Positions 1,458-63,658 of a DNA stretch of 64,000 nucleotides are shown here, piece by piece. The stretch spans positions 37,138,001-37,202,000 of the forward strand of contig OZ024751.1 in NCBI GenBank assembly GCA_964016885.1. The letters run 5' to 3'. The position numbers were made by a program, and so were the translations under genes. Every line of letters begins with the position of its first letter. Position 1 is the first letter of the stretch. Origin of the DNA: Eledone cirrhosa (Eukaryota). The notes under the pieces are model-generated. The model worked only from the letters and a program-made list of their open reading frames with translations. It made no database searches and was not told the origin of the DNA.

Positions 1458-5286
<3,829 letters not shown>

Positions 5287-5747: not shown

Positions 5748-5793
<46 letters not shown>

Positions 5794-12888: not shown

Positions 12889-12952
12889 GTGATTTGTATT
12901 TAATTGGCTTCTCTTAATAGGAAAAATAATGATAATAGTAACAATGGCAATC

Positions 12953-12990
12953 ATAATAATAATAATAATAATGATAATAATAATAATAAT
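12953..12990 (-). repeat. (ATT)n tail/target microsatellite at the 3' end of copy A
   Basis: AAT repeats directly abut GATTTCTTTATTAACC, the reverse complement of the element terminus GGTTAATAAAGAAATC. Confidence 0.9.
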
Positions 12991-15900
12991 GATTTCTTTA
13001 TTAACCACAAGGGTTTACATAAAGTAGACATTAAGGACAGTGCAGGACAATGCAGGACGGTACAAATGGGCATTTCTGCGTGTAAAAAAAACAAAAATAG
13101 AGGATGTAACAAAAATAACAATGAAAATAACAATGAAAAATTCCCCAATAGGGGGGAGACTTCGGAGGGACATTTGTGGAGAAAGCCCAGTAAAAAGCCA
13201 CAATGACCCTGACCACCAAGGCAAGTGCCCTCTCCCAGTTTTCCACCTTTAGTTTACAGATATATACTCAGAGTCGGCCCATTCACTCGGGCCATTCTTG
13301 CTTCTCTCACCCATCTTTCAACAAAATGCTGGGAAGAGAGCACTTCCTTCTCTACTCTGATTTTCCTTTTCAAATGAAATTTGAAAAAGTCAATCAGAGC
13401 ATCACCGAAGAGGTAAGTGCTCGTCTTCAGCCCTTTCAAACGTGTCCACCATACTATCTCTTTCGCCATGGCCACCAGACAGATAAAAACTGCCTGCCCT
13501 TCCCGGCTAAAGGAGGAGGGCGGGGCAATCCTCACGATAGACTCAGATGATAGCTGGATCCGTCCTAAACGCGACAGCAGGTGTTCGACATAAACCCACA
13601 AGTCAGCAATTTTCGGACACTGGACGAGTGCGTGCAGGACGGTTTCGTCGCCCTGCGCGCATCTCGGACATGCCCGGCTGACGGCACCTCCATGCCTGTA
13701 GAGTTTATCCCGAACTGGCAAGGCTCCTCGGTAGCACTGCCAGGCCAGAGATTTCTGGAAGTTGTCCATAGGCCCTGGCCCGAAGGTTCTTCCGAAGAGA
13801 TTGGCTAGTTGATTTTCGTCGACGCCTAGAGTTTCCCCAAGTACGTCGTCGCTCTTCCCCTCCACTAATCCTCTATAGAACGCCGAGGTGGAGTTTCCAC
13901 CGATCACATTGCCCGATTGGTCGAGGGCTGTGAGCGCCTGAAGACATTCCAGTCTCCAGGCGCTCCCTCTCGGTCTTCGCTTGACCCAGGACTGCAGCTC
14001 CGTCAAGGAAACGAGCTGGGGAAAAACGCGTCTAGCAAACGGCGACCACACCTGATCACCGTCGAGGAAGAGGTGGAGATGTCGTAGCCTGAGCGCGTGC
14101 CTGCGCATCATCAGCCACGGCATGCCCAGCCCTCCACGTAGCGGGTGTTGACAACAGATGGACCGCCTGACCATCGGAGCACGTCCCTTCCACAAAAAGC
14201 GAAAGAGCAAACGCTCCAGCGCAGTCAGGCGAGGCTTAGGACAAGGTACGACGGTTAGGCGGTAGCAGATGACAGACGCGATGTACGCGTTAGCCACCTC
14301 CGCTCGACCTTTCAGGGATAGCTTCCTCTCCGCCCATTTCTGGGTGAGAGAAGCCACCCTGCTCGTCACCTCGTCCCAGTTTTTGTCCGTCTGGAGGTCC
14401 GGACCGAACCAGACCCCTAGCAATTTAACCGGTCCGTCCGTCCAGCGCCCGACGACGCTGTTGGACGGCATGGACCTGCCTCTCCAGGTGCCGAGCTGCA
14501 GGCCCACTGACTTTTCCTGGTTGATCATTGCTCCTGTCACCGCTTCGTATTCTCTTAGTGTAGTGCCGATCGCCTCGATGTGTTTGGCGTTCGACACCAC
14601 TACGGTGACATCGTCCGCATATGCTGACACGGATCTTCCGCATCCTAGTTCGCGCGGGACTCCCCTCAACGTCTCCAGTTTGTGCAGTAATGGCTCGAGA
14701 GTCAATACGTACAAGAGGGACGAGAGGGGACATCCTTGGCGGACCGAGCGCATGATGTTGAACGGTTCCGACAGGTGACCGTTCACTCTCACCACAGAGC
14801 AGATGTCGCTGTGCATGGCAGCGATCCAGCCTCTGAAGACGGGCCCAAAGCCAGCCGCCCTCAGGACTGCCGCTAGGTAACGATGGTCGACCCTATCGAA
14901 AGCTTTCGACTGATCTAAATTGATCAAGGACCCACCCGTGCCAGGTTCCCTAGCTACCCTCTCTACGATGTATCGCATGAGGTGGAGGTTGTCGTGGATG
15001 GATCTGTCGGGAATGGCGCATGTCTGCGCCTCTCCCACCAGACCACCAACGACAAGCGCCAACCTCTTTGCTAGCACCTTGGCCAAAATCTTAAACTCTG
15101 TGTTTAGCAGAGTTATGGGCCGGAAATTGTCTATGTTATCCCCCTTGTTCGGATCCTTTCTCAGCAGTGCCACCGCTCCTCGGCTCACAGAACTGGGAAT
15201 TCTCCCGTTCTGTTGCCAGTTGCAGTAGACGTCCGCCAAGAGGCCTCCGAACAAGTCTGGCATCTGTACGTAAAGTTCATAGGGCAGACCATCCAAACCA
15301 GGCGATTTACCCCTTGTGCAGCCAGTCATTGCCTCCCTTACTTCAGCGGCTGTTATCGGCTTTTCGCAACACTTCGCCTCAGTGGCCGAGAGCCGCGGCA
15401 GTCCGTCGAGGTAGACACTAAAGTCCATCCCTCTACCCGGCCCCCCGCTGCCCCCGAACAGCTGAGCGAAGTGTCGCTGAAAAGCTTCACACATTTGCCC
15501 GGGATCGAGTAGCATGCGCCCGTCGTGGTCCACCAAAGACCGGATCGTGGCTTTGTTGCCACGACGCGCCTCCGCCACTCGGGCCCATTGAACGGCTTTC
15601 GTCCCCTCGTGTCTGAGAGCACGCACCCTAGCTCTGACAACGCAGCCTTCGTGCTTTGCATTGAAGAATTGGTCAAGGGCCAATTTCGCCGCAAGCACGT
15701 CGGTCGCAATGCCTTTGCTAAGCGCCTCGTCTAATTTTCTAACTAGTTCTCCCTCTGCTCTATTTTTCTCTATTGCTAAAGCCTTACTAAACCTAATCGA
15801 TTCTATTCTAATCGCTCTTTTCAGAGCAAACCACCACTTGTTGTTGACGATGGCCCCCGTCAACGCCCGCTTAACTAGTTCGCTAATCCGGTCTCTGTAG

Positions 15901-18785
15901 GCCTTGCGCGCTGGTAAGGACGCGTTTAGCTTCCAGTAGCCGGGTCCTCGTCTATGAAGCCTATCTAAGTCAAGCACACAGATCACGAATTTGTGGTCCG
16001 TGTAGCTGACTATCTTGAATTGTGGACAGCCTATGCTAGACCTATCTATTTCCCTACAAAATACTCTATCTAGATATGATCTGGATGACCCTATGCGGTT
16101 TGTCCAAGTCCACATTGGCACATTCGGGAAATCCAATCGGTACCTGTCAGACAGTTCAAAACGCCTGAGCAGGTTGGTGAGGCTCTTGCACCCTCCACCC
16201 CTATCCGCTAATCCCACACAGTCCCAGCGTGCATCTAAGATCCCGTTCCAGTCGCCCACTAACACTAAAGAGCGCGACGTTCCAAGAAAGGTCTCCAGAC
16301 GCCGGAAGAAATCAGGCCGCCCTGCTCCTGTCGGGGCATAGACGGCCACTAGCCTGAAAGCTTGCCCGTCTCCGCTGGTCACGTCCAGCACCACCAGCTT
16401 ACCCTCTGGGTCCAGGAAGATGGCCCGTATGGCGAGATCCAAACCTCTCCGAAAAAGCACAGCAACTCCTCCACCCGATCCAGGACGGCTGGGAGATGCG
16501 TACACATCGTAGCCGCCGAAGATCGGTGCGAAGGCCCGTGCTTCGGAGATTCTTGTCTCGCTGATGGCCACTACATCTATGTTTAGTGACCTGAGGTCGT
16601 TGAGCAGGTGACCCTGCTTCCATGACGACCCCAAGCCACGCGCATTTATGCTGCCTATTCTGAGTGAGGTCATGTTTAAAATAGAGTGGAAAAGATGGGA
16701 AAGACCACTTACCGTATTTTTGGTAGAGGAGGGATGGTTTTTACATCCCTTTTCACTTGATCGTCTGGTGAAGGGACCGTTGAATCGTCCCTTCGGCTGG
16801 TCGTCGGCTCTTCTAAGAGAATGTCTGAATATACTCTTCGATTAATGGTTCCTCCTAGGTCCCTGAAATCACCAACTGCGTTGGGGAATTTCGTTTTAAT
16901 GTTTGTGTATTGTTTCTGTGCTATTTTTAGCAGTCTTATGTTAGTTGGCGTTTTGATTGGTGCTGGTATTATGTAGTCCTGTTGTGAAATGTCTGTGTGT
17001 TCAATTATGTAAGTCATTAGTTTCTTGTTGTGTGTGTTTATTGCCGTGCATTTGTTTTTCTGGGGGTGGGGTGTGGTTCTGCTATTTTCTTGTCGTTGTT
17101 GCTGGGTGTGTGTGTTTTGTTGTTGTGTTTGCGATGTTGGTGCTTGTGGTGGTGGTGTTGAAGGTGTTGTTGGCGGTGGGGTTGTCGCCGGTGGTGATGG
17201 TGGTGCTGGTGTGGGTGGTGATGGTGTTGGTGGTGTTGCTGCTGTGGGTCTCTTTGCAGTAGACTTTACCCTTTTCTCATTTCTTTCCTCCCTTTTCAAA
17301 GGCGACGATGCGCTGCTTCTGCGTTTGTGCCTTCTTGAGACCTTTTGCCATCCCTCTCCCACCTCACACTCCATGTCTGATTCTGTAAGGTCGGGGAGGG
17401 GTACCAGCTCCACTCTTTCACTTGTTGTTGTTGGTGATGTTTGCACTGGAGTCTCTGTTGCAGCTGCATTTGGTATTGCTGTTGTTGTTGTTAATATTTC
17501 CACTGCTGCTGCTGTCTTTGATTTCCGTGGAGTGGGTATGGGTGCCACGGACCTATCGTTCCTGGTTGCCGCTTGTCCTGTTGCTGGTAGCCGTGGAACC
17601 GGATTCGGGAGGAGGGGGGTTTTCTCCTTTCTCAGGGTCTTCTCGTTGCAGAAGGCCCTGAGGTGAGTCTTCGATCCACAGCGAAAGCATTTCGGGCGTT
17701 TGCCCTCAACACTTATGGGCAGTTGAGTGCCGTTATCGAAGTCTATCACATCCGGGATAGCTTCGATGCACTCCTGGTTGGTTTGGATTAGCATCTCAAT
17801 GGAGGAGCCGACCCAATCTTCTCTTACTTTTTTCTGTACTTGCAGTACAGTTGTTTTGTCCTCGATTCCGACGAGGACAGACGCGGCCAGCCAAGAAGGG
17901 GTCATTCCGGGGGGGACGTGGGTCAGTTTGACCCTCACAATTTTTTGCCCGCAGTAGGAGGGCACCAACACCATTTCCTCGCTCCTTAGGGTCACTACTG
18001 ATTGGGCCTTTGCCTCCTGGGGTGTGGCAAAAAGTACGTCTACGGTGGCGTATTTTTTGCCTCGGGTGATGTGCGTTTTCCTCTGCCACACAGACCCCAA
18101 GGCTTTTTGTATTTGGGCCTCTGTGGCTCTTTCCACCCTACGGGATTTTGTACTTACTGTACGGTACGTGACCGTACAGTGCTCTTGGGTTTCGAAAAAA
18201 TTTTTCGCTGCCTTGCAGATTGCTCGGTGTCCGTTCTTTGTCACCATCTTCTTCGCTTCCTCTAATTCCTCATTTGTTATGAGGATTGTTTCCAGGTTTT
18301 TCGCAATACCTGCAAATGAGATTGGTTTTTCTCTGCTGTTGTTGTTGTCGTCAGAGCTGCTGGTACTTTTGTTGTTGCTGCAGGTACTACGACTACTGCC
18401 TCCGCCGCTGTTGCTGTGGTTGTTGTTGGTGTTGCTGCTGCTAATGCTGTTGTTGTTTATGCTGCTGGTGATGCTGTTGCGGCTGCTACTGTTGTTTTCA
18501 TTGTCACTGTTGCTGTTGTTATTACGGCTGCTACTGCTATTATTCCTGACGTCAGACGAATGAACTGGGTTTTCGTATTTCCCGCACACCTGTTTCGTCG
18601 CTGTCGTCGTCGTCGTGGAGAAACCTTGCACGCTTTGCACGAGACTTTTCTTTTCTTTCGTCGCTTGCGAAAGAGAAGGTAGGGAGAGAGACACATTTAA
18701 AGAAGGGAGGGAGAGAGACAATCTTCTCTCTCCTGTAGTGATGATTGAGGAAGAAGAAGACGGAATGAGTGGGAGTGACGTATGA
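12991..18785 (-). mobile_element. Tx1/L1-group non-LTR retrotransposon, copy A (5795 bp, lacks 5' 235 bp)
   Basis: ORF1, ORF2 and 3' UTR are near-identical to copies B-E. Homology to the full-length copies begins at TCATACGTCAC (45719 in copy C). Confidence 0.95.
13254..16673 (-). CDS. ORF2p: APE endonuclease, reverse transcriptase, C-terminal CCHC (1139 aa), copy A
   Basis: EN motifs SINARGL, SETR, VGDWN, YLDR, TDH; RT motifs KSPGLDGLP, FRPITLLN, DQSKAFDRV, VRQGCPLS, YADD; CPRC-x8-H-x4-C. GPGYWKLN linker typical of L1/Tx1. Confidence 0.97.
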   Translation of the reverse strand: MTSLRIGSINARGLGSSWKQGHLLNDLRSLNIDVVAISETRISEARAFAPIFGGYDVYASPSRPGSGGGVAVLFRRGLDLAIRAIFLDPEGKLVVLDVTSGDGQAFRLVAVYAPTGAGRPDFFRRLETFLGTSRSLVLVGDWNGILDARWDCVGLADRGGGCKSLTNLLRRFELSDRYRLDFPNVPMWTWTNRIGSSRSYLDRVFCREIDRSSIGCPQFKIVSYTDHKFVICVLDLDRLHRRGPGYWKLNASLPARKAYRDRISELVKRALTGAIVNNKWWFALKRAIRIESIRFSKALAIEKNRAEGELVRKLDEALSKGIATDVLAAKLALDQFFNAKHEGCVVRARVRALRHEGTKAVQWARVAEARRGNKATIRSLVDHDGRMLLDPGQMCEAFQRHFAQLFGGSGGPGRGMDFSVYLDGLPRLSATEAKCCEKPITAAEVREAMTGCTRGKSPGLDGLPYELYVQMPDLFGGLLADVYCNWQQNGRIPSSVSRGAVALLRKDPNKGDNIDNFRPITLLNTEFKILAKVLAKRLALVVGGLVGEAQTCAIPDRSIHDNLHLMRYIVERVAREPGTGGSLINLDQSKAFDRVDHRYLAAVLRAAGFGPVFRGWIAAMHSDICSVVRVNGHLSEPFNIMRSVRQGCPLSSLLYVLTLEPLLHKLETLRGVPRELGCGRSVSAYADDVTVVVSNAKHIEAIGTTLREYEAVTGAMINQEKSVGLQLGTWRGRSMPSNSVVGRWTDGPVKLLGVWFGPDLQTDKNWDEVTSRVASLTQKWAERKLSLKGRAEVANAYIASVICYRLTVVPCPKPRLTALERLLFRFLWKGRAPMVRRSICCQHPLRGGLGMPWLMMRRHALRLRHLHLFLDGDQVWSPFARRVFPQLVSLTELQSWVKRRPRGSAWRLECLQALTALDQSGNVIGGNSTSAFYRGLVEGKSDDVLGETLGVDENQLANLFGRTFGPGPMDNFQKSLAWQCYRGALPVRDKLYRHGGAVSRACPRCAQGDETVLHALVQCPKIADLWVYVEHLLSRLGRIQLSSESIVRIAPPSSFSREGQAVFICLVAMAKEIVWWTRLKGLKTSTYLFGDALIDFFKFHLKRKIRVEKEVLSSQHFVERWVREARMARVNGPTLSIYL

Positions 18786-18790
18786 TCCAT
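16709..18790 (-). CDS. ORF1p (gag-like, CCHC zinc knuckle), copy A; 693 aa from a junction-derived ATG (MDHTSLP...)
   Basis: CFRCGSKTHLRAFC knuckle (CX2CX4HX4C), Ser/Asn-rich N-terminus, GWQKVSRRHKRR basic motif, Pro/Thr-rich C-terminus. Use of this start codon is inferred. Confidence 0.85.
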   Translation of the reverse strand: MDHTSLPLIPSSSSSIITTGERRLSLSLPSLNVSLSLPSLSQATKEKKSLVQSVQGFSTTTTTATKQVCGKYENPVHSSDVRNNSSSSRNNNSNSDNENNSSSRNSITSSINNNSISSSNTNNNHSNSGGGSSRSTCSNNKSTSSSDDNNNSREKPISFAGIAKNLETILITNEELEEAKKMVTKNGHRAICKAAKNFFETQEHCTVTYRTVSTKSRRVERATEAQIQKALGSVWQRKTHITRGKKYATVDVLFATPQEAKAQSVVTLRSEEMVLVPSYCGQKIVRVKLTHVPPGMTPSWLAASVLVGIEDKTTVLQVQKKVREDWVGSSIEMLIQTNQECIEAIPDVIDFDNGTQLPISVEGKRPKCFRCGSKTHLRAFCNEKTLRKEKTPLLPNPVPRLPATGQAATRNDRSVAPIPTPRKSKTAAAVEILTTTTAIPNAAATETPVQTSPTTTSERVELVPLPDLTESDMECEVGEGWQKVSRRHKRRSSASSPLKREERNEKRVKSTAKRPTAATPPTPSPPTPAPPSPPATTPPPTTPSTPPPQAPTSQTQQQNTHTQQQRQENSRTTPHPQKNKCTAINTHNKKLMTYIIEHTDISQQDYIIPAPIKTPTNIRLLKIAQKQYTNIKTKFPNAVGDFRDLGGTINRRVYSDILLEEPTTSRRDDSTVPSPDDQVKRDVKTIPPLPKIR

Positions 18791-18836
18791 TATTATTAAT
18801 AATAATAAATATAAGAACAATAAAGCTAATAATAAT
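18786..18836. repeat. 51-bp spacer between A and B, identical to 24632-24682
   Basis: TCCATTATTATTAATAATAATAAATATAAGAACAATAAAGCTAATAATAAT occurs at both positions. Confidence 0.95.
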
Positions 18837-21800
18837 GATTTCTTTATTAACCACAAGGGTTTACATAAAGTAGACATTAAGGACAGTGCAGGACAATGCA
18901 GGACGGTACAAATGGGCATTTCTGCGTGTAAAAAAAACAAAAATAGAGGATGTAACAAAAATAACAATGAAAATAACAATGAAAAATTCCCCAATAGGGG
19001 GGAGACTTCGGAGGGACATTTGTGGAGAAAGCCCAGTAAAAAGCCACAATGACCCTGACCACCAAGGCAAGTGCCCTCTCCCAGTTTTCCACCTTTAGTT
19101 TACAGATATATACTCAGAGTCGGCCCATTCACTCGGGCCATTCTTGCTTCTCTCACCCATCTTTCAACAAAATGCTGGGAAGAGAGCACTTCCTTCTCTA
19201 CTCTGATTTTCCTTTTCAAATGAAATTTGAAAAAGTCAATCAGAGCATCACCGAAGAGGTAAGTGCTCGTCTTCAGCCCTTTCAAACGTGTCCACCATAC
19301 TATCTCTTTCGCCATGGCCACCAGACAGATAAAAACTGCCTGCCCTTCCCGGCTAAAGGAGGAGGGCGGGGCAATCCTCACGATAGACTCAGATGATAGC
19401 TGGATCCGTCCTAAACGCGACAGCAGGTGTTCGACATAAACCCACAAGTCAGCAATTTTCGGACACTGGACGAGTGCGTGCAGGACGGTTTCGTCGCCCT
19501 GCGCGCATCTCGGACATGCCCGGCTGACGGCACCTCCATGCCTGTAGAGTTTATCCCGAACTGGCAAGGCTCCTCGGTAGCACTGCCAGGCCAGAGATTT
19601 CTGGAAGTTGTCCATAGGCCCTGGCCCGAAAGTTCTTCCGAAGAGATTGGCTAGTTGATTTTCGTCGACGCCTAGAGTTTCCCCAAGTACGTCGTCGCTC
19701 TTCCCCTCCACTAATCCTCTATAGAACGCCGAGGTGGAGTTTCCACCGATCACATTGCCCGATTGGTCGAGGGCTGTGAGCGCCTGAAGACATTCCAGTC
19801 TCCAGGCGCTCCCTCTCGGTCTTCGCTTGACCCAGGACTGCAGCTCCGTCAAGGAAACGAGCTGGGGAAAAACGCGTCTAGCAAACGGCGACCACACCTG
19901 ATCACCGTCGAGGAAGAGGTGGAGATGTCGTAGCCTGAGCGCGTGCCTGCGCATCATCAGCCACGGCATGCCCAGCCCTCCACGTAGCGGGTGTTGACAA
20001 CAGATGGACCGCCTGACCATCGGAGCACGTCCCTTCCACAAAAAGCGAAAGAGCAAACGCTCCAGCGCAGTCAGGCGAGGCTTAGGACAAGGTACGACGG
20101 TTAGGCGGTAGCAGATGACAGACGCGATGTACGCGTTAGCCACCTCCGCTCGACCTTTCAGGGATAGCTTCCTCTCCGCCCATTTCTGGGTGAGAGAAGC
20201 CACCCTGCTCGTCACCTCGTCCCAGTTTTTGTCCGTCTGGAGGTCCGGACCGAACCAGACCCCTAGCAATTTAACCGGTCCGTCCGTCCAGCGCCCGACG
20301 ACGCTGTTGGACGGCATGGACCTGCCTCTCCAGGTGCCGAGCTGCAGGCCCACTGACTTTTCCTGGTTGATCATTGCTCCTGTCACCGCTTCGTATTCTC
20401 TTAGTGTAGTGCCGATCGCCTCGATGTGTTTGGCGTTCGACACCACTACGGTGACATCGTCCGCATATGCTGACACGGATCTTCCGCATCCTAGTTCGCG
20501 CGGGACTCCCCTCAACGTCTCCAGTTTGTGCAGTAATGGCTCGAGAGTCAATACGTACAAGAGGGACGAGAGGGGACATCCTTGGCGGACCGAGCGCATG
20601 ATGTTGAACGGTTCCGACAGGTGACCGTTCACTCTCACCACAGAGCAGATGTCGCTGTGCATGGCAGCGATCCAGCCTCTGAAGACGGGCCCAAAGCCAG
20701 CCGCCCTCAGGACTGCCGCTAGGTAACGATGGTCGACCCTATCGAAAGCTTTCGACTGATCTAAATTGATCAAGGACCCACCCGTGCCAGGTTCCCTAGC
20801 TACCCTCTCTACGATGTATCGCATGAGGTGGAGGTTGTCGTGGATGGATCTGTCGGGAATGGCGCATGTCTGCGCCTCTCCCACCAGACCACCAACGACA
20901 AGCGCCAACCTCTTTGCTAGCACCTTGGCCAAAATCTTAAACTCTGTGTTTAGCAGAGTTATGGGCCGGAAATTGTCTATGTTATCCCCCTTGTTCGGAT
21001 CCTTTCTCAGCAGTGCCACCGCTCCTCGGCTCACAGAACTGGGAATTCTCCCGTTCTGTTGCCAGTTGCAGTAGACGTCCGCCAAGAGGCCTCCGAACAA
21101 GTCTGGCATCTGTACGTAAAGTTCATAGGGCAGACCATCCAAACCAGGCGATTTACCCCTTGTGCAGCCAGTCATTGCCTCCCTTACTTCAGCGGCTGTT
21201 ATCGGCTTTTCGCAACACTTCGCCTCAGTGGCCGAGAGCCGCGGCAGTCCGTCGAGGTAGACACTAAAGTCCATCCCTCTACCCGGCCCCCCGCTGCCCC
21301 CGAACAGCTGAGCGAAGTGTCGCTGAAAAGCTTCACACATTTGCCCGGGATCGAGTAGCATGCGCCCGTCGTGGTCCACCAAAGACCGGATCGTGGCTTT
21401 GTTGCCACGACGCGCCTCCGCCACTCGGGCCCATTGAACGGCTTTCGTCCCCTCGTGTCTGAGAGCACGCACCCTAGCTCTGACAACGCAGCCTTCGTGC
21501 TTTGCATTGAAGAATTGGTCAAGGGCCAATTTCGCCGCAAGCACGTCGGTCGCAATGCCTTTGCTAAGCGCCTCGTCTAATTTTCTAACTAGTTCTCCCT
21601 CTGCTCTATTTTTCTCTATTGCTAAAGCCTTACTAAACCTAATCGATTCTATTCTAATCGCTCTTTTCAGAGCAAACCACCACTTGTTGTTGACGATGGC
21701 CCCCGTCAACGCCCGCTTAACTAGTTCGCTAATCCGGTCTCTGTAGGCCTTGCGCGCTGGTAAGGACGCGTTTAGCTTCCAGTAGCCGGGTCCTCGTCTA

Positions 21801-24631
21801 TGAAGCCTATCTAAGTCAAGCACACAGATCACGAATTTGTGGTCCGTGTAGCTGACTATCTTGAATTGTGGACAGCCTATGCTAGACCTATCTATTTCCC
21901 TACAAAATACTCTATCTAGATATGATCTGGATGACCCTATGCGGTTTGTCCAAGTCCACATTGGCACATTCGGGAAATCCAATCGGTACCTGTCAGACAG
22001 TTCAAAACGCCTGAGCAGGTTGGTGAGGCTCTTGCACCCTCCACCCCTATCCGCTAATCCCACACAGTCCCAGCGTGCATCTAAGATCCCGTTCCAGTCG
22101 CCCACTAACACTAAAGAGCGCGACGTTCCAAGAAAGGTCTCCAGACGCCGGAAGAAATCAGGCCGCCCTGCTCCTGTCGGGGCATAGACGGCCACTAGCC
22201 TGAAAGCTTGCCCGTCTCCGCTGGTCACGTCCAGCACCACCAGCTTACCCTCTGGGTCCAGGAAGATGGCCCGTATGGCGAGATCCAAACCTCTCCGAAA
22301 AAGCACAGCAACTCCTCCACCCGATCCAGGACGGCTGGGAGATGCGTACACATCGTAGCCGCCGAAGATCGGTGCGAAGGCCCGTGCTTCGGAGATTCTT
22401 GTCTCGCTGATGGCCACTACATCTATGTTTAGTGACCTGAGGTCGTTGAGCAGGTGACCCTGCTTCCATGACGACCCCAAGCCACGCGCATTTATGCTGC
22501 CTATTCTGAGTGAGGTCATGTTTAAAATAGAGTGGAAAAGATGGGAAAGACCACTTACCGTATTTTTGGTAGAGGAGGGATGGTTTTTACATCCCTTTTC
22601 ACTTGATCGTCTGGTGAAGGGACCGTTGAATCGTCCCTTCGGCTGGTCGTCGGCTCTTCTAAGAGAATGTCTGAATATACTCTTCGATTAATGGTTCCTC
22701 CTAGGTCCCTGAAATCACCAACTGCGTTGGGGAATTTCGTTTTAATGTTTGTGTATTGTTTCTGTGCTATTTTTAGCAGTCTTATGTTAGTTGGCGTTTT
22801 GATTGGTGCTGGTATTATGTAGTCCTGTTGTGAAATGTCTGTGTGTTCAATTATGTAAGTCATTAGTTTCTTGTTGTGTGTGTTTATTGCCGTGCATTTG
22901 TTTTTCTGGGGGTGGGGTGTGGTTCTGCTATTTTCTTGTCGTTGTTGCTGGGTGTGTGTGTTTTGTTGTTGTGTTTGCGATGTTGGTGCTTGTGGTGGTG
23001 GTGTTGAAGGTGTTGTTGGCGGTGGGGTTGTCGCCGGTGGTGATGGTGGTGCTGGTGTGGGTGGTGATGGTGTTGGTGGTGTTGCTGCTGTGGGTCTCTT
23101 TGCAGTAGACTTTACCCTTTTCTCATTTCTTTCCTCCCTTTTCAAAGGCGACGATGCGCTGCTTCTGCGTTTGTGCCTTCTTGAGACCTTTTGCCATCCC
23201 TCTCCCACCTCACACTCCATGTCTGATTCTGTAAGGTCGGGGAGGGGTACCAGCTCCACTCTTTCACTTGTTGTTGTTGGTGATGTTTGCACTGGAGTCT
23301 CTGTTGCAGCTGCATTTGGTATTGCTGTTGTTGTTGTTAATATTTCCACTGCTGCTGCTGTCTTTGATTTCCGTGGAGTGGGTATGGGTGCCACGGACCT
23401 ATCGTTCCTGGTTGCCGCTTGTCCTGTTGCTGGTAGCCGTGGAACCGGATTCGGGAGGAGGGGGGTTTTCTCCTTTCTCAGGGTCTTCTCGTTGCAGAAG
23501 GCCCTGAGGTGAGTCTTCGATCCACAGCGAAAGCATTTCGGGCGTTTGCCCTCAACACTTATGGGCAGTTGAGTGCCGTTATCGAAGTCTATCACATCCG
23601 GGATAGCTTCGATGCACTCCTGGTTGGTTTGGATTAGCATCTCAATGGAGGAGCCGACCCAATCTTCTCTTACTTTTTTCTGTACTTGCAGTACAGTTGT
23701 TTTGTCCTCGATTCCGACGAGGACAGACGCGGCCAGCCAAGAAGGGGTCATTCCGGGGGGGACGTGGGTCAGTTTGACCCTCACAATTTTTTGCCCGCAG
23801 TAGGAGGGCACCAACACCATTTCCTCGCTCCTTAGGGTCACTACTGATTGGGCCTTTGCCTCCTGGGGTGTGGCAAAAAGTACGTCTACGGTGGCGTATT
23901 TTTTGCCTCGGGTGATGTGCGTTTTCCTCTGCCACACAGACCCCAAGGCTTTTTGTATTTGGGCCTCTGTGGCTCTTTCCACCCTACGGGATTTTGTACT
24001 TACTGTACGGTACGTGACCGTACAGTGCTCTTGGGTTTCGAAAAAATTTTTCGCTGCCTTGCAGATTGCTCGGTGTCCGTTCTTTGTCACCATCTTCTTC
24101 GCTTCCTCTAATTCCTCATTTGTTATGAGGATTGTTTCCAGGTTTTTCGCAATACCTGCAAATGAGATTGGTTTTTCTCTGCTGTTGTTGTTGTCGTCAG
24201 AGCTGCTGGTACTTTTGTTGTTGCTGCAGGTACTACGACTACTGCCTCCGCCGCTGTTGCTGTGGTTGTTGTTGGTGTTGCTGCTGCTAATGCTGTTGTT
24301 GTTTATGCTGCTGGTGATGCTGTTGCGGCTGCTACTGTTGTTTTCATTGTCACTGTTGCTGTTGTTATTACGGCTGCTACTGCTATTATTCCTGACGTCA
24401 GACGAATGAACTGGGTTTTCGTATTTCCCGCACACCTGTTTCGTCGCTGTCGTCGTCGTCGTGGAGAAACCTTGCACGCTTTGCACGAGACTTTTCTTTT
24501 CTTTCGTCGCTTGCGAAAGAGAAGGTAGGGAGAGAGACACATTTAAAGAAGGGAGGGAGAGAGACAATCTTCTCTCTCCTGTAGTGATGATTGAGGAAGA
24601 AGAAGACGGAATGAGTGGGAGTGACGTATGA
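18837..24631 (-). mobile_element. Tx1/L1-group non-LTR retrotransposon, copy B (5795 bp, same 5' truncation as A)
   Basis: Offset exactly 5846 bp from A; at least one SNP (13785 g vs 19631 a). Confidence 0.95.
19100..22519 (-). CDS. ORF2p APE-RT-CCHC (1139 aa), copy B
   Basis: Same motifs as copy A; uninterrupted. Confidence 0.97.
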   Translation of the reverse strand: MTSLRIGSINARGLGSSWKQGHLLNDLRSLNIDVVAISETRISEARAFAPIFGGYDVYASPSRPGSGGGVAVLFRRGLDLAIRAIFLDPEGKLVVLDVTSGDGQAFRLVAVYAPTGAGRPDFFRRLETFLGTSRSLVLVGDWNGILDARWDCVGLADRGGGCKSLTNLLRRFELSDRYRLDFPNVPMWTWTNRIGSSRSYLDRVFCREIDRSSIGCPQFKIVSYTDHKFVICVLDLDRLHRRGPGYWKLNASLPARKAYRDRISELVKRALTGAIVNNKWWFALKRAIRIESIRFSKALAIEKNRAEGELVRKLDEALSKGIATDVLAAKLALDQFFNAKHEGCVVRARVRALRHEGTKAVQWARVAEARRGNKATIRSLVDHDGRMLLDPGQMCEAFQRHFAQLFGGSGGPGRGMDFSVYLDGLPRLSATEAKCCEKPITAAEVREAMTGCTRGKSPGLDGLPYELYVQMPDLFGGLLADVYCNWQQNGRIPSSVSRGAVALLRKDPNKGDNIDNFRPITLLNTEFKILAKVLAKRLALVVGGLVGEAQTCAIPDRSIHDNLHLMRYIVERVAREPGTGGSLINLDQSKAFDRVDHRYLAAVLRAAGFGPVFRGWIAAMHSDICSVVRVNGHLSEPFNIMRSVRQGCPLSSLLYVLTLEPLLHKLETLRGVPRELGCGRSVSAYADDVTVVVSNAKHIEAIGTTLREYEAVTGAMINQEKSVGLQLGTWRGRSMPSNSVVGRWTDGPVKLLGVWFGPDLQTDKNWDEVTSRVASLTQKWAERKLSLKGRAEVANAYIASVICYRLTVVPCPKPRLTALERLLFRFLWKGRAPMVRRSICCQHPLRGGLGMPWLMMRRHALRLRHLHLFLDGDQVWSPFARRVFPQLVSLTELQSWVKRRPRGSAWRLECLQALTALDQSGNVIGGNSTSAFYRGLVEGKSDDVLGETLGVDENQLANLFGRTFGPGPMDNFQKSLAWQCYRGALPVRDKLYRHGGAVSRACPRCAQGDETVLHALVQCPKIADLWVYVEHLLSRLGRIQLSSESIVRIAPPSSFSREGQAVFICLVAMAKEIVWWTRLKGLKTSTYLFGDALIDFFKFHLKRKIRVEKEVLSSQHFVERWVREARMARVNGPTLSIYL

Positions 24632-24636
24632 TCCAT
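22555..24636 (-). CDS. ORF1p (CCHC knuckle), copy B; 693 aa from a junction-derived ATG
   Basis: Same protein as copy A from MDHTSLP onward. Confidence 0.85.
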   Translation of the reverse strand: MDHTSLPLIPSSSSSIITTGERRLSLSLPSLNVSLSLPSLSQATKEKKSLVQSVQGFSTTTTTATKQVCGKYENPVHSSDVRNNSSSSRNNNSNSDNENNSSSRNSITSSINNNSISSSNTNNNHSNSGGGSSRSTCSNNKSTSSSDDNNNSREKPISFAGIAKNLETILITNEELEEAKKMVTKNGHRAICKAAKNFFETQEHCTVTYRTVSTKSRRVERATEAQIQKALGSVWQRKTHITRGKKYATVDVLFATPQEAKAQSVVTLRSEEMVLVPSYCGQKIVRVKLTHVPPGMTPSWLAASVLVGIEDKTTVLQVQKKVREDWVGSSIEMLIQTNQECIEAIPDVIDFDNGTQLPISVEGKRPKCFRCGSKTHLRAFCNEKTLRKEKTPLLPNPVPRLPATGQAATRNDRSVAPIPTPRKSKTAAAVEILTTTTAIPNAAATETPVQTSPTTTSERVELVPLPDLTESDMECEVGEGWQKVSRRHKRRSSASSPLKREERNEKRVKSTAKRPTAATPPTPSPPTPAPPSPPATTPPPTTPSTPPPQAPTSQTQQQNTHTQQQRQENSRTTPHPQKNKCTAINTHNKKLMTYIIEHTDISQQDYIIPAPIKTPTNIRLLKIAQKQYTNIKTKFPNAVGDFRDLGGTINRRVYSDILLEEPTTSRRDDSTVPSPDDQVKRDVKTIPPLPKIR

Positions 24637-24775
24637 TATTATTAATAATAATAAATATAAGAACAATAAAGCTAATAATAATATTATTAATGACAAATAT
24701 AATAATAATACTAATAATAATAATAAAAATAACAACGACAACAACAACAACAACAACAACAATAAAAATAAAAAA
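24632..24775. repeat. AAT/AAC-rich target microsatellite on the 5' side of the A-B array
   Basis: Imperfect (AAT)n then (AAC)n; the first 51 bp are duplicated at 18786-18836. Confidence 0.85.
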
Positions 24776-45483: not shown

Positions 45484-45695
45484 GAATGCCATGGTTGACG
45501 GAGGCTCGGCTCTGTAAGGTATAGTAATTTTTAACCGTTAAAACAATTGTAAATTGTTTAAAACTTGAACCAAATTGTTGATAAAGACACCCTCCTCCTC
45601 GTGAGAGGGGTCTTTCTGTCCGTTATTTGGCCCTTCGGGGTTAAATAACCAGTTATTGGGGTTTTGTACCCAAAATTTCATTTTAAACAAAAAAC
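45484..45695 (+). promoter_or_regulatory. Structured 5' UTR (presumed internal promoter / RNA structure); same at 51546 and 57629
   Basis: Several hairpins, including a 12-bp stem closed by cUUCGg (45622-45649). Promoter function is inferred from L1-group biology. Confidence 0.6.
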
Positions 45696-47789
45696 ATGGC
45701 TACCAAAAAAAAAAAATTTCATACGTCACTCCCACTCATTCCGTCTTCTTCTTCCTCAATCATCACTACAGGAGAGAGAAGATTGTCTCTCTCCCTCCCT
45801 TCTTTAAATGTGTCTCTCTCCCTACCTTCTCTTTCGCAAGCGACGAAAGAAAAGAAAAGTCTCGTGCAAAGCGTGCAAGGTTTCTCCACGACGACGACGA
45901 CAGCGACGAAACAGGTGTGCGGGAAATACGAAAACCCAGTTCATTCGTCTGACGTCAGGAATAATAGCAGTAGCAGCCGTAATAACAACAGCAACAGTGA
46001 CAATGAAAACAACAGTAGCAGCCGCAACAGCATCACCAGCAGCATAAACAACAACAGCATTAGCAGCAGCAACACCAACAACAACCACAGCAACAGCGGC
46101 GGAGGCAGTAGTCGTAGTACCTGCAGCAACAACAAAAGTACCAGCAGCTCTGACGACAACAACAACAGCAGAGAAAAACCAATCTCATTTGCAGGTATTG
46201 CGAAAAACCTGGAAACAATCCTCATAACAAATGAGGAATTAGAGGAAGCGAAGAAGATGGTGACAAAGAACGGACACCGAGCAATCTGCAAGGCAGCGAA
46301 AAATTTTTTCGAAACCCAAGAGCACTGTACGGTCACGTACCGTACAGTAAGTACAAAATCCCGTAGGGTGGAAAGAGCCACAGAGGCCCAAATACAAAAA
46401 GCCTTGGGGTCTGTGTGGCAGAGGAAAACGCACATCACCCGAGGCAAAAAATACGCCACCGTAGACGTACTTTTTGCCACACCCCAGGAGGCAAAGGCCC
46501 AATCAGTAGTGACCCTAAGGAGCGAGGAAATGGTGTTGGTGCCCTCCTACTGCGGGCAAAAAATTGTGAGGGTCAAACTGACCCACGTCCCCCCCGGAAT
46601 GACCCCTTCTTGGCTGGCCGCGTCTGTCCTCGTCGGAATCGAGGACAAAACAACTGTACTGCAAGTACAGAAAAAAGTAAGAGAAGATTGGGTCGGCTCC
46701 TCCATTGAGATGCTAATCCAAACCAACCAGGAGTGCATCGAAGCTATCCCGGATGTGATAGACTTCGATAACGGCACTCAACTGCCCATAAGTGTTGAGG
46801 GCAAACGCCCGAAATGCTTTCGCTGTGGATCGAAGACTCACCTCAGGGCCTTCTGCAACGAGAAGACCCTGAGAAAGGAGAAAACCCCCCTCCTCCCGAA
46901 TCCGGTTCCACGGCTACCAGCAACAGGACAAGCGGCAACCAGGAACGATAGGTCCGTGGCACCCATACCCACTCCACGGAAATCAAAGACAGCAGCAGCA
47001 GTGGAAATATTAACAACAACAACAGCAATACCAAATGCAGCTGCAACAGAGACTCCAGTGCAAACATCACCAACAACAACAAGTGAAAGAGTGGAGCTGG
47101 TACCCCTCCCCGACCTTACAGAATCAGACATGGAGTGTGAGGTGGGAGAGGGATGGCAAAAGGTCTCAAGAAGGCACAAACGCAGAAGCAGCGCATCGTC
47201 GCCTTTGAAAAGGGAGGAAAGAAATGAGAAAAGGGTAAAGTCTACTGCAAAGAGACCCACAGCAGCAACACCACCAACACCATCACCACCCACACCAGCA
47301 CCACCATCACCACCGGCGACAACCCCACCGCCAACAACACCTTCAACACCACAAGCACCAACATCGCAAACACAACAACAAAACACACACACCCAGCAAC
47401 AACGACAAGAAAATAGCAGAACCACACCCCACCCCCAGAAAAACAAATGCACGGCAATAAACACACACAACAAGAAACTAATGACTTACATAATTGAACA
47501 CACAGACATTTCACAACAGGACTACATAATACCAGCACCAATCAAAACGCCAACTAACATAAGACTGCTAAAAATAGCACAGAAACAATACACAAACATT
47601 AAAACGAAATTCCCCAACGCAGTTGGTGATTTCAGGGACCTAGGAGGAACCATTAATCGAAGAGTATATTCAGACATTCTCTTAGAAGAGCCGACGACCA
47701 GCCGAAGGGACGATTCAACGGTCCCTTCACCAGACGATCAAGTGAAAAGGGATGTAAAAACCATCCCTCCTCTACCAAAAATACGGTAA
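45696..47789 (+). CDS. ORF1p (CCHC knuckle), copy C, 697 aa
   Basis: AAACATGG start context; CFRCGSKTHLRAFC knuckle. Confidence 0.93.
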   Translation: MATKKKKFHTSLPLIPSSSSSIITTGERRLSLSLPSLNVSLSLPSLSQATKEKKSLVQSVQGFSTTTTTATKQVCGKYENPVHSSDVRNNSSSSRNNNSNSDNENNSSSRNSITSSINNNSISSSNTNNNHSNSGGGSSRSTCSNNKSTSSSDDNNNSREKPISFAGIAKNLETILITNEELEEAKKMVTKNGHRAICKAAKNFFETQEHCTVTYRTVSTKSRRVERATEAQIQKALGSVWQRKTHITRGKKYATVDVLFATPQEAKAQSVVTLRSEEMVLVPSYCGQKIVRVKLTHVPPGMTPSWLAASVLVGIEDKTTVLQVQKKVREDWVGSSIEMLIQTNQECIEAIPDVIDFDNGTQLPISVEGKRPKCFRCGSKTHLRAFCNEKTLRKEKTPLLPNPVPRLPATGQAATRNDRSVAPIPTPRKSKTAAAVEILTTTTAIPNAAATETPVQTSPTTTSERVELVPLPDLTESDMECEVGEGWQKVSRRHKRRSSASSPLKREERNEKRVKSTAKRPTAATPPTPSPPTPAPPSPPATTPPPTTPSTPQAPTSQTQQQNTHTQQQRQENSRTTPHPQKNKCTAINTHNKKLMTYIIEHTDISQQDYIIPAPIKTPTNIRLLKIAQKQYTNIKTKFPNAVGDFRDLGGTINRRVYSDILLEEPTTSRRDDSTVPSPDDQVKRDVKTIPPLPKIR

Positions 47790-47824
47790 GTGGTCTTTCC
47801 CATCTTTTCCACTCTATTTTAAAC

Positions 47825-50800
47825 ATGACCTCACTCAGAATAGGCAGCATAAATGCGCGTGGCTTGGGGTCGTCATGGAAGCAGGGTCACCTGCTCAACG
47901 ACCTCAGGTCACTAAACATAGATGTAGTGGCCATCAGCGAGACCAGAATCTCCGAAGCACGGGCCTTCGCACCGATCTTCGGCGGCTACGATGTGTACGC
48001 ATCTCCCAGCCGTCCTGGATCGGGTGGAGGAGTTGCTGTGCTTTTTCGGAGAGGTTTGGATCTCGCCATACGGGCCATCTTCCTGGACCCAGAGGGTAAG
48101 CTGGTGGTGCTGGACGTGACCAGCGGAGACGGGCAAGCTTTCAGGCTAGTGGCCGTCTATGCCCCGACAGGAGCAGGGCGGCCTGATTTCTTCCGGCGTC
48201 TGGAGACCTTTCTTGGAACGTCGCGCTCTTTAGTGTTAGTGGGCGACTGGAACGGGATCTTAGATGCACGCTGGGACTGTGTGGGATTAGCGGATAGGGG
48301 TGGAGGGTGCAAGAGCCTCACCAACCTGCTCAGGCGTTTTGAACTGTCTGACAGGTACCGATTGGATTTCCCGAATGTGCCAATGTGGACTTGGACAAAC
48401 CGCATAGGGTCATCCAGATCATATCTAGATAGAGTATTTTGTAGGGAAATAGATAGGTCTAGCATAGGCTGTCCACAATTCAAGATAGTCAGCTACACGG
48501 ACCACAAATTCGTGATCTGTGTGCTTGACTTAGATAGGCTTCATAGACGAGGACCCGGCTACTGGAAGCTAAACGCGTCCTTACCAGCGCGCAAGGCCTA
48601 CAGAGACCGGATTAGCGAACTAGTTAAGCGGGCGTTGACGGGGGCCATCGTCAACAACAAGTGGTGGTTTGCTCTGAAAAGAGCGATTAGAATAGAATCG
48701 ATTAGGTTTAGTAAGGCTTTAGCAATAGAGAAAAATAGAGCAGAGGGAGAACTAGTTAGAAAATTAGACGAGGCGCTTAGCAAAGGCATTGCGACCGACG
48801 TGCTTGCGGCGAAATTGGCCCTTGACCAATTCTTCAATGCAAAGCACGAAGGCTGCGTTGTCAGAGCTAGGGTGCGTGCTCTCAGACACGAGGGGACGAA
48901 AGCCGTTCAATGGGCCCGAGTGGCGGAGGCGCGTCGTGGCAACAAAGCCACGATCCGGTCTTTGGTGGACCACGACGGGCGCATGCTACTCGATCCCGGG
49001 CAAATGTGTGAAGCTTTTCAGCGACACTTCGCTCAGCTGTTCGGGGGCAGCGGGGGGCCGGGTAGAGGGATGGACTTTAGTGTCTACCTCGACGGACTGC
49101 CGCGGCTCTCGGCCACTGAGGCGAAGTGTTGCGAAAAGCCGATAACAGCCGCTGAAGTAAGGGAGGCAATGACTGGCTGCACAAGGGGTAAATCGCCTGG
49201 TTTGGATGGTCTGCCCTATGAACTTTACGTACAGATGCCAGACTTGTTCGGAGGCCTCTTGGCGGACGTCTACTGCAACTGGCAACAGAACGGGAGAATT
49301 CCCAGTTCTGTGAGCCGAGGAGCGGTGGCACTGCTGAGAAAGGATCCGAACAAGGGGGATAACATAGACAATTTCCGGCCCATAACTCTGCTAAACACAG
49401 AGTTTAAGATTTTGGCCAAGGTGCTAGCAAAGAGGTTGGCGCTTGTCGTTGGTGGTCTGGTGGGAGAGGCGCAGACATGCGCCATTCCCGACAGATCCAT
49501 CCACGACAACCTCCACCTCATGCGATACATCGTAGAGAGGGTAGCTAGGGAACCTGGCACGGGTGGGTCCTTGATCAATTTAGATCAGTCGAAAGCTTTC
49601 GATAGGGTCGACCATCGTTACCTAGCGGCAGTCCTGAGGGCGGCTGGCTTTGGGCCCGTCTTCAGAGGCTGGATCGCTGCCATGCACAGCGACATCTGCT
49701 CTGTGGTGAGAGTGAACGGTCACCTGTCGGAACCGTTCAACATCATGCGCTCGGTCCGCCAAGGATGTCCCCTCTCGTCCCTCTTGTACGTATTGACTCT
49801 CGAGCCATTACTGCACAAACTGGAGACGTTGAGGGGAGTCCCGCGCGAACTAGGATGCGGAAGATCCGTGTCAGCATATGCGGACGATGTCACCGTAGTG
49901 GTGTCGAACGCCAAACACATCGAGGCGATCGGCACTACACTAAGAGAATACGAAGCGGTGACAGGAGCAATGATCAACCAGGAAAAGTCAGTGGGCCTGC
50001 AGCTCGGCACCTGGAGAGGCAGGTCCATGCCGTCCAACAGCGTCGTCGGGCGCTGGACGGACGGACCGGTTAAATTGCTAGGGGTCTGGTTCGGTCCGGA
50101 CCTCCAGACGGACAAAAACTGGGACGAGGTGACGAGCAGGGTGGCTTCTCTCACCCAGAAATGGGCGGAGAGGAAGCTATCCCTGAAAGGTCGAGCGGAG
50201 GTGGCTAACGCGTACATCGCGTCTGTCATCTGCTACCGCCTAACCGTCGTACCTTGTCCTAAGCCTCGCCTGACTGCGCTGGAGCGTTTGCTCTTTCGCT
50301 TTTTGTGGAAGGGACGTGCTCCGATGGTCAGGCGGTCCATCTGTTGTCAACACCCGCTACGTGGAGGGCTGGGCATGCCGTGGCTGATGATGCGCAGGCA
50401 CGCGCTCAGGCTACGACATCTCCACCTCTTCCTCGACGGTGATCAGGTGTGGTCGCCGTTTGCTAGACGCGTTTTTCCCCAGCTCGTTTCCTTGACGGAG
50501 CTGCAGTCCTGGGTCAAGCGAAGACCGAGAGGGAGCGCCTGGAGACTGGAATGTCTTCAGGCGCTCACAGCCCTCGACCAATCGGGCAATGTGATCGGTG
50601 GAAACTCCACCTCGGCGTTCTATAGAGGATTAGTGGAGGGGAAGAGCGACGACGTACTTGGGGAAACTCTAGGCGTCGACGAAAATCAACTAGCCAATCT
50701 CTTCGGAAGAACTTTCGGGCCAGGGCCTATGGACAACTTCCAGAAATCTCTGGCCTGGCAGTGCTACCGAGGAGCCTTGCCAGTTCGGGATAAACTCTAC

Positions 50801-51244: not shown

Positions 51245-51757
51245 ACTAAAGGTGGAAAACTGGGAGAGGGCACTTGCCTTGGTGGTCAGGGTCATTGTGG
51301 CTTTTTACTGGGCTTTCTCCACAAATGTCCCTCCGAAGTCTCCCCCCTATTGGGGAATTTTTCATTGTTATTTTCATTGTTATTTTTGTTACATCCTCTG
51401 TTTTTGTTTTTTTACACGCAGAAATGCCCATTTGTACCGTCCTGCATTGTCCTGCACTGTCCTTAATGTCTACTTTATGTAAACCCTTGTGGTTAATAAA
51501 GAAATCATTATTATTATATTTATTATTATTATTATTATTATTATTGAATGCCATGGTTGACGGAGGCTCGGCTCTGTAAGGTATAGTAATTTTTAACCGT
51601 TAAAACAATTGTAAATTGTTTAAAACTTGAACCAAATTGTTGATAAAGACACCCTCCTCCTCGTGAGAGGGGTCTTTCTGTCCGTTATTTGGCCCTTCGG
51701 GGTTAAATAACCAGTTATTGGGGTTTTGTACCCAAAATTTCATTTTAAACAAAAAAC

Positions 51758-53857: not shown

Positions 53858-53892
53858 GTGGTCTTTCCCATCTTTTCCACTCTATTTTAAAC

Positions 53893-57312: not shown

Positions 57313-57840
57313 ACTAAAGGTGGAAAACTGGGAGAGGGCACTTGCCTTGGTGGTCAGGGTCATTGTGGCTTTTTACTGGGCTTTCTCCACAAATGTCCCT
57401 CCGAAGTCTCCCCCCTATTGGGGAATTTTTCATTGTTATTTTCATTGTTATTTTTGTTACATCCTCTGTTTTTGTTTTTTTACACGCAGAAATGCCCATT
57501 TGTACCGTCCTGCATTGTCCTGCACTGTCCTTAATGTCTACTTTATGTAAACCCTTGTGGTTAATAAAGAAATCATTATTATTATTATCATTATTATTAT
57601 ATTTATTATTATTATTATTATTATTATTGAATGCCATGGTTGACGGAGGCTCGGCTCTGTAAGGTATAGTAATTTTTAACCGTTAAAACAATTGTAAATT
57701 GTTTAAAACTTGAACCAAATTGTTGATAAAGACACCCTCCTCCTCGTGAGAGGGGTCTTTCTGTCCGTTATTTGGCCCTTCGGGGTTAAATAACCAGTTA
57801 TTGGGGTTTTGTACCCAAAATTTCATTTTAAACAAAAAAC

Positions 57841-59940: not shown

Positions 59941-59975
59941 GTGGTCTTTCCCATCTTTTCCACTCTATTTTAAAC

Positions 59976-63395: not shown

Positions 63396-63656
63396 ACTAA
63401 AGGTGGAAAACTGGGAGAGGGCACTTGCCTTGGTGGTCAGGGTCATTGTGGCTTTTTACTGGGCTTTCTCCACAAATGTCCCTCCGAAGTCTCCCCCCTA
63501 TTGGGGAATTTTTCATTGTTATTTTCATTGTTATTTTTGTTACATCCTCTATTTTTGTTTTTTTTACACGCAGAAATGCCCATTTGTACCGTCCTGCATT
63601 GTCCTGCACTGTCCTTAATGTCTACTTTATGTAAACCCTTGTGGTTAATAAAGAAA

Positions 63657-63658
<2 letters not shown>

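What the first reader, a model, noticed from the sequence alone, without database searches (positions are those of the whole stretch)
18770..24690. Copy B inherits copy A's exact 5' truncation point and junction scar
Seen: A and B both lack precisely the first 235 bp and both carry the same 51-bp upstream sequence, including the odd junction AATAATAATGGA|TCATACG (minus strand). They still differ near the 3' end (13785 vs 19631), where B carries the allele found in C and D. Two independent 5' truncations at the same base with the same scar are very unlikely. Inference: B's 5' end was copied from A, a second instance of the mechanism proposed for the C-D-E array.
Basis: partly seen in the sequence, partly recalled or inferred. 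Interest (0 to 1): 0.82.

Follow-up and report, generated by a model that had tools for sequence, protein, structure and literature searches.

The report
LINE copies inherit neighbours' front ends
In a probably octopod genome, one jumping-gene copy shares its neighbour's exact broken front end and 51 flanking letters, and many other stacked copies share front but not back ends, likely because a new copy landing just upstream finishes inserting by copying the front of the copy already there.

Summary
Confirmed. A (18785-12991) and B (24631-18837) are head-to-tail copies of a young (ATT)n-targeting L1/Tx1-type LINE. Both start at element base 236 behind the same 51-bp flank and scar, found only twice in the 3-Gb genome. 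They share an allele absent from all other young copies sampled (base 2467) and differ at one base (5236), where B matches unlinked copies. So B's front was copied locally from A.

This is a family habit. There are 320 head-to-tail junctions among 3,555 exact 3' ends. In 33 of 53 informative junctions the spacer (24-891 bp) repeats the flank up to the resident's 5' junction. Neighbours share identical 5' blocks of 1 kb or more (18 of 53, against 69 of 3,364 unlinked pairs) far more often than 3' blocks (4 of 53).

Best reading: priming at an upstream ATT tract, then homology-directed completion on the resident copy. For B itself a separate template rests on one base; plain duplication or later crossover remain possible, and reads could not test it. 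Known parts: R1 double insertion, SDSA-type L1 chimeras. Its role as a routine array-building route was not found in ten searches. The scan noted this ATT-targeting family before, and one similar chimera in another genome.

The parts
18837..24631 (-). Copy B: LINE, element bases 236-6030; inferred chimera of A's 5' part (at least bases 236-2467) and a 3' part from another template
12991..18785 (-). Copy A: resident 5'-truncated LINE, bases 236-6030; identical to unlinked full-length copies L225 and L226 except at base 2467 (two homopolymer tracts skipped)
18786..18836 (-). 51-bp spacer X between B and A: host flank starting at an ATT triplet run (inferred priming site) and ending in the scar
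24632..24682 (-). Identical 51-bp X upstream of B, continuous with the host flank
12925..12990 (-). Degenerate (ATT)n tract behind A; shares only its first ~10 bases with X
19631..19631 (-). The single A/B difference (E5236): T in B; A has C at 13785
22400..22400 (-). Allele E2467A in B (and at 16554 in A), not seen in other young copies sampled; sets the minimum length of the copied 5' block
22555..24636 (-). ORF1 of B, 693 aa, opened by an in-frame ATG inside the scar (same frame in A, 16709-18790)
19100..22519 (-). Intact ORF2 of B, 1139 aa from ATG: APE endonuclease, RT, zf-RVT (A: 13254-16673)
   Evidence: (on E's ORF2)
45484..51506 (+). Copy C, full length; preceded by 54-bp interrupted ATT flank Y (45430-45483)
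51546..57574 (+). Copy D, full length; identical to E up to base 3618, 7 differences beyond; preceded by the 39-bp suffix of Y (51507-51545)
57629..63658 (+). Copy E, full length, 6,030 bp, used as reference; preceded by the full 54-bp Y (57575-57628)

Best explanation
B carries A's truncation point, scar, flank and base-2467 allele, and it likely arose when a new LINE RNA was reverse-transcribed from an ATT nick 51 bp upstream of A and the unfinished cDNA then likely paired with A and copied A's front end and flank instead of being joined as an ordinary truncated insertion. Steps: (1) A inserted first, truncated at base 236 with a scar (shown as structure; order inferred). (2) The element's endonuclease nicked the ATT run at the start of X and an RNA of the 5236T/5923A type was copied from its 3' end (inferred from B's 3' end abutting ATT and from its haplotype). 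(3) Somewhere between bases 2468 and 5235 the cDNA switched to A (same or sister chromatid) and synthesis ran back through A's 5' part, the scar and X before rejoining the left flank, SDSA-like (inferred). Result: flank-X-[A 5' / new 3']-X-A. The 'target-site duplication' is really X plus 2.2-5.0 kb of A. The same route, repeated, would build the family's arrays with nested spacers and 5'-shared, 3'-mosaic copies.
For: Local copying: scar and X unique to this locus; 2467A shared by A and B, while the 25 other copies showing it differ from E at 47-467 sites and none of the 55 copies listed has it. Separate 3' template: L211 matches B at all but 2467 and 2545; L194, L199, L201 differ from B at one site over bases 3700-6030. 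Family rule: 33 of 53 informative junctions (16 of 31 loci) repeat the flank right up to the resident's 5' junction, 24-891 bp, with different start points inside one array, whereas an ordinary truncated insertion showed an 18-bp TSD (c7_71). Identical 5' blocks of 1 kb or more: 18 of 53 neighbours versus 69 of 3,364 unlinked pairs; 3' blocks 4 of 53 versus 49 of 3,364. Array-private alleles shared by neighbours fall 35, 14, 8, 5, 4, 3 per kb against a flat background. In the 18 pairs, 200 of 222 upstream-copy alleles beyond the block occur in unlinked copies, 14 of 18 blocks have no identical unlinked match among 97 copies, and in 8 of 8 cases the 3' part is not that of the upstream neighbour. 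Polarity follows the element on both strands, 9 and 9. Inheritance goes with similarity: last-kb divergence median about 0.5% versus 2.0% (p = 2e-4, junctions within an array not independent).
Against: For B the separate template rests on one base, unverified in reads. No second dimer with a shared truncation was found; two young full-length copies (L222, L231) sit upstream of short, older truncated residents without inheriting their ends. 20 of 53 informative junctions (15 loci with none) failed the strict inheritance test. A plain sign test is even (5' block longer in 27 pairs, 3' in 26), though unlinked pairs lean 769 to 2,592 the other way. Two array copies have the opposite polarity, young 5' and old 3' (c1_278:1, c1_441:9), and c4_288 looks like a plain duplication (4 differences, none a shared polymorphism), so other recombination occurs. 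Arrays were picked by interrupted spacers or young alleles, not at random. Sequence cannot time the copying to the moment of insertion.
Confidence: 0.65

Rival explanations
1. DNA-level tandem duplication of X plus A through the ~10-bp ATT microhomology between the start of X and A's tail, with no retrotransposition; the one difference came later by gene conversion from another copy, by mutation, or is a consensus error toward the majority allele.
For: Gives exactly the same junctions. A and B are 5,794 of 5,795 identical; T is the majority allele. c4_288 looks like such a duplication.
Against: The one difference falls on a lineage-splitting site and yields a haplotype found in unlinked copies. 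It cannot explain the other arrays, where neighbours differ by blocks of shared polymorphisms confined to the 3' side (up to 64 sites in c1_278).
Confidence: 0.17
2. Two separate events: an ordinary independent insertion Z at the start of X (Z-X-A), then unequal crossover or long-tract conversion between Z and A of a single-copy allele or sister chromatid, giving X-[A 5'/Z 3']-X-A.
For: Double insertion followed by unequal exchange is the published route to TE arrays (PMC5932611, passages). Independent upstream insertions exist here (20 of 53 junctions). Dependence on similarity fits recombination as well. Two copies of opposite polarity exist.
Against: Every inherited junction would need a second event, yet 8 of 8 scored spacers in c1_441 are full suffixes with three different starts. 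Unequal exchange inside arrays predicts as many shared 3' blocks as 5' blocks (seen 4 versus 18) and a 3' part equal to the upstream neighbour (0 of 8). None of 20 copies picked for a young 5' end had an old 3' part, while L220 and L224, picked for a young 3' allele, have 9% and 4.4% diverged 5' parts.
Confidence: 0.14
3. Assembly artefact: A and B are two alleles, or one copy duplicated by the assembler.
For: No listed public contig spanned the B/A junction; one 93-bp contig of run X4 covered X and ran on into sequence unlike B's 3' end.
Against: The junction starts exactly at the element's 3' terminus and at an ATT run, like dozens of other junctions; A's own tail is not repeated behind B; errors would not follow element polarity on both strands. 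The tool states that contigs show presence, not absence, and only 24 of 1,461 pieces were listed; the runs need not be the assembled individual.
Confidence: 0.04

Closest known systems
SDSA-type chimeric or templated L1 insertions (Gilbert et al. 2005, seen only as cited in bioRxiv 10.1101/2024.08.27.596794, passages; the chimeras with endogenous L1 and duplications are recalled)
   Same: cDNA leaves the RNA, pairs with nearby homologous DNA, and a genomic segment is duplicated into the insertion.
   Different: In that preprint such events are 22 templated insertions, typically under 250 bp of non-L1 template. Here the template is the neighbouring element, the copied block reaches 2-5 kb plus up to 891 bp of flank, and the pattern marks 33 of 53 informative germline junctions.
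R1 tandem arrays and TE dimers by double insertion (Stage and Eickbush 2009, PMC2718515, passages; McGurk and Barbash 2018, PMC5932611, passages)
   Same: A site-specific non-LTR element re-inserts into the target left at the 5' end of a resident copy, giving head-to-tail arrays separated by target sequence.
   Different: There the spacer is a short, near-fixed TSD (14 bp; 33 nt in one array) and dimers with distinct truncations are taken as proof of independent insertion. Here spacers vary from 24 to 891 bp, end at the resident's junction, and the upstream copy inherits the resident's truncation, scar and 5' alleles.
Microsatellite-targeting Tx1-clade LINEs: Kibi (TC)n, Koshi (TTC)n, crocodilian Tx1 on (TTCC)n/(TTTC)n (PMC4494074, passages)
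   Same: Two ORFs, APE endonuclease plus RT, strict microsatellite target; tandem insertions sandwiching a TSD are reported there for the dependent SINEU-3.
   Different: Target is (ATT)n and the host is probably an octopod (closest named hit Argonauta hians, 74% in the RT region). Clade membership was not tested by a tree with named Tx1 references.

Membership tests
L1/Tx1-group non-LTR retrotransposon | ORF2 with APE endonuclease, RT and C-terminal zinc motif; separate ORF1; no LTRs | tested here: met
   Pfam PF03372, PF00078, PF13966; best solved-structure match human L1 ORF2p E 2e-52 versus R2 1e-21; two ORFs
Tx1 clade | RT phylogeny groups it with named Tx1 elements rather than L1 | not tested
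   The homolog search returned almost no named elements; the Tx1 label comes from likeness of habit and from earlier scan notes
Microsatellite-specific LINE | Both ends abut one microsatellite at independent loci | tested here: met
   30 of 30 loci with a full 5' end are preceded by 18-48 bp of (ATT)n; 3' ends run into (ATT)n
Ordinary double insertion (R1-type dimer) | Short TSD as spacer and an independently formed 5' end on each copy | tested here: not met
   B shares A's truncation, scar and 2467A; spacer 51 bp reaching the junction
SDSA-type chimeric insertion | Duplication running from the nick into the homologous template | tested here: met
   X duplicated plus at least bases 236-2467 of A
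SDSA-type chimeric insertion | 3' part from a different template than the 5' part | tested here: inconclusive
   One base in B, matching unlinked copies but not verified in reads; clear with many sites in other arrays
SDSA-type chimeric insertion | Copying is coupled to reverse transcription (one event) | not testable with these tools
   Needs de novo events or a marked-donor assay; only indirect polarity evidence here
Subfamily with an alternative 5' leader | Dispersed copies that begin with the same 51-bp leader | tested here: not met
   2 hits genome-wide, both in this dimer

The most novel reading that the evidence does not exclude
In this LINE family, homology-directed completion on a resident copy is the normal fate of a cDNA primed next to a similar copy. 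Primed upstream it adds a chimeric copy and duplicates the flank; primed in the resident's own tail it replaces the resident's 3' part (old-5'/young-3' copies L220, L224). The element would thus have a built-in, one-directional form of recombination that rescues truncated cDNAs as full-length copies, shuffles promoter/ORF1 against ORF2 between lineages, and grows arrays without unequal crossover.
Probability: 0.45. Interest if true: 0.8.

Novelty: new variant of a known kind. Interest (0 to 1): 0.62.

Why it matters
How the 5' end of a LINE cDNA is joined to the genome is still the least settled step of retrotransposition. B/A is a natural marker experiment: a private truncation shows that the 5' junction came from neighbouring DNA, not from the RNA. 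The family gives hundreds of such junctions in one assembly, so switch points, homology needs and duplication lengths can be measured at scale. It also offers a route to mosaic LINE lineages and TE-derived arrays other than double insertion plus unequal exchange, and it warns that array copies with identical junctions or 5' ends are not independent insertions when dating or counting them.

Tried and rejected
Truncation hot spot at base 236: 7 hits, 5 of them full-length variants. Leader subfamily: rejected. B copied wholly from a new RNA after a cut just inside A: rejected, because 2467A is shared. 2467A as a lineage marker: of 36 other hits fetched, 25 showed it on divergent backgrounds, 1 aligned with C there, and 10 did not align across the site at 85%. 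B's 3' end from C or D: rejected. A genome-wide list of dimers with truncated downstream copies was not obtained; close pairs among the first 100 listed 3' ends were internal deletions, a 134-bp terminal repeat, or separate insertions. TSD length from singletons was mostly unreadable inside pure ATT. c4_168 shares an odd junction between two copies (3 hits genome-wide, 2 there), but the match is about 14 bp and the copies are 80% alike, so an ordinary TSD explains it; it was not counted as inherited. The breakpoint scan against E also flags 1-1.5% 5' divergence that is probably a lineage trait; only the strong cases are used. Gilbert 2005 was not held. Ten literature searches found no report of this as a routine array-building route; subscription papers and Repbase entries were not searchable, and no supplements were read.
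Full report
The element. The window lies on contig C11 of a 3.0-Gb animal assembly. It holds five near-identical copies of a 6,030-bp LINE: A and B on the minus strand, C, D and E on the plus strand. ORF2 has APE endonuclease, RT and zf-RVT domains and is closest to human L1 ORF2p among solved structures. The closest named relative is from Argonauta hians, 74% identical in the RT region, so the host is probably an octopod. The family has 3,555 exact 3' ends. All 30 loci with a full 5' end that were inspected sit behind 18-48 bp of (ATT)n. Earlier scan notes call this lineage Tx1-like; I did not test the clade with a tree.

The observation. A (18785-12991) and B (24631-18837) both begin at element base 236, are 5,795 bp long and differ only at base 5236. 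The same 51 bp (X) precede B and separate B from A. The scar junction and the start of X each occur twice in the genome, both here. Five other hits with a non-T base before the truncation point were full-length variants.

How much of B came from A. A and B share A at base 2467. That 29-mer has 38 hits; of the 36 others, 25 showed the allele on backgrounds 47-467 differences from E, 1 aligned with C, and 10 did not align across the site. None of the 55 copies listed carries it, and L225 and L226 equal A except there. So at least bases 236-2467 of B are a local copy of A, which rules out a cut just inside A followed by a wholly new cDNA.

Where B's 3' part came from. C at 5236 marks a young lineage of 124 copies; A at 5923 has 186. 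B has T5236 with A5923. I fetched 20 places listed for 5923A but not for 5236C: L211 equals B except at 2467 and 2545, and L194, L199 and L201 differ from B at one site over bases 3700-6030. B's 3' haplotype therefore exists elsewhere; this sample shows existence, not frequency. B does not carry the C/D alleles further 3'. The switch would lie between 2468 and 5235. It is one base, and public runs could neither confirm the junction nor phase the base; one contig covering X ran on into other sequence, which is weak evidence against, as contigs drop rare branches.

The family as a test. Head-to-tail junctions with a full-length downstream copy number 181 (spacer 6-36) plus 139 (37-67). I fetched arrays chosen by interrupted spacers, young alleles or close spacing, so the sample is not random. 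Of 74 junctions scored, 56 had a non-ATT interruption and 53 of those a visible upstream flank; 30 spacers were exact suffixes of an upstream flank ending at the 5' junction, 33 allowing for ATT count, in 16 of 31 loci, 24-891 bp long. Starts differ within an array (51, 36 and 30 bp in c1_441; 39 and 54 in C-D-E), as separate priming events would give. The 20 that failed include truncated upstream copies with no or a short TSD (18 bp in c7_71) and a few near misses; they are more diverged pairs (last-kb median 2.0% against about 0.5%).

Polarity. Among 84 near-complete copies, 18 of 53 neighbours share an identical block of 1 kb or more from base 236, against 69 of 3,364 unlinked pairs; for 3' blocks it is 4 of 53 against 49 of 3,364 (18 versus 4, p = 0.0014). 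With one pair per array it is 10 versus 3 of 24. Array-private alleles shared by neighbours fall from 35 in the first kb to 3 in the last, against a flat background. In the 18 pairs, 200 of 222 upstream-copy alleles beyond the block occur in unlinked copies, 14 blocks have no identical unlinked match among 97 copies, and in all 8 cases with an upstream neighbour the 3' part differs from it by 3-33 sites. The pairs split 9 and 9 by strand. Against: the sign test is 27 to 26; c4_288 looks like a plain duplication; two copies have opposite polarity; L222 and L231 did not inherit the ends of short old residents.

Mechanism. Shown: local copying of flank, scar and 5' part; variable duplications ending at the resident's junction; 5'-shared, 3'-mosaic neighbours. 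Inferred: target-primed reverse transcription from an upstream ATT nick, then pairing of the cDNA with the resident and synthesis back through its front end and flank before rejoining, SDSA-like (0.65 for B). Plain duplication through ATT microhomology plus conversion or error (0.17) fits B but not the multi-site chimeras. Independent insertion plus later crossover (0.14) needs a second event at every inherited junction and predicts symmetric sharing inside arrays. An assembly artefact (0.04) would not follow element polarity.

Comparison. R1 arrays arise by re-insertion into a 14-bp TSD (PMC2718515, passages), and TE dimers by double insertion then unequal exchange, with distinct truncations as proof of independence (PMC5932611, passages). 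cDNA pairing with nearby homologous DNA is cited to Gilbert et al. 2005 in bioRxiv 10.1101/2024.08.27.596794 (passages); the original was not held, and its chimeras with endogenous L1 are recalled. PMC11702581 (passages) reports small tandem duplications at L1 insertion sites. Kibi, Koshi and crocodilian Tx1 target other microsatellites (PMC4494074, passages). Ten searches found no account of this as a routine way to build arrays in a natural genome. An earlier scan note describes one similar L2 chimera in another genome (unchecked).

Verdict. A real feature; a new variant of known kinds. The single dimer is a neat marker experiment, and the family-wide one-way pattern is the larger result. 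Interest 0.62.

Noticed in passing
window 24636 and 18790 (minus): The scar supplies an in-frame ATG, so both truncated copies keep a 693-aa ORF1 although the native start is lost; in A the frame is open further up, from an ATG at 18919 in B's 3' UTR (736 aa). May be chance, since ATG arises easily after AAT repeats.
   Followed up: partly
window 18786-18806 and 24632-24652: The scar forms a short palindrome with the ATT run before it (ATT x3 then AAT x3), as a fold-back would; but AAT runs also occur in the host flank, and no template for it was found in the element or within 300-400 bp.
   Followed up: partly
window 12991-24631 versus 45484-63658: Two separate young arrays of opposite orientation lie 21 kb apart; A and E belong to the same 5236C lineage and differ at 2 sites.
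   Followed up: no
L220, L224, L229, L202: Copies with an old 5' part and a young 3' part (9.1% versus 0.13% in L220, whose ORF1 is broken; 4.4% versus 0.05% in L224): candidates for in-place 3' replacement by cDNA.
   Followed up: partly
L140-L141 (G000:C1 near 278.84 Mb): Upstream copy is identical to its neighbour to base 3038, shares its split ORF1 and 7 array-private alleles, then differs at 64 sites: the clearest chimera.
   Followed up: yes
G000:C4:357.94-358.06 Mb: A long array, about 20 copies by spacing, with 5236C copies interspersed and a repeated interrupted spacer of varying length; not fetched.
   Followed up: no
L046 (G000:C1 near 78.39 Mb): A full-length copy followed by a direct repeat of its last 134 bases, joined at an internal TCATT motif.
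   Followed up: no
L177 (first copy of the array at G000:C1 near 441.1 Mb): A copy holding only bases 1-2119, identical to its downstream neighbour up to 1411, joined straight to the spacer.
   Followed up: partly
L040-L043 (G000:C1 near 55.44 Mb): An 885-bp piece of another repeat is duplicated as spacer between successive copies whose bodies differ throughout.
   Followed up: partly
window 38931-39856: A (GA)-rich minisatellite with 140-bp and 254-bp periods and up to 98% match between units.
   Followed up: no
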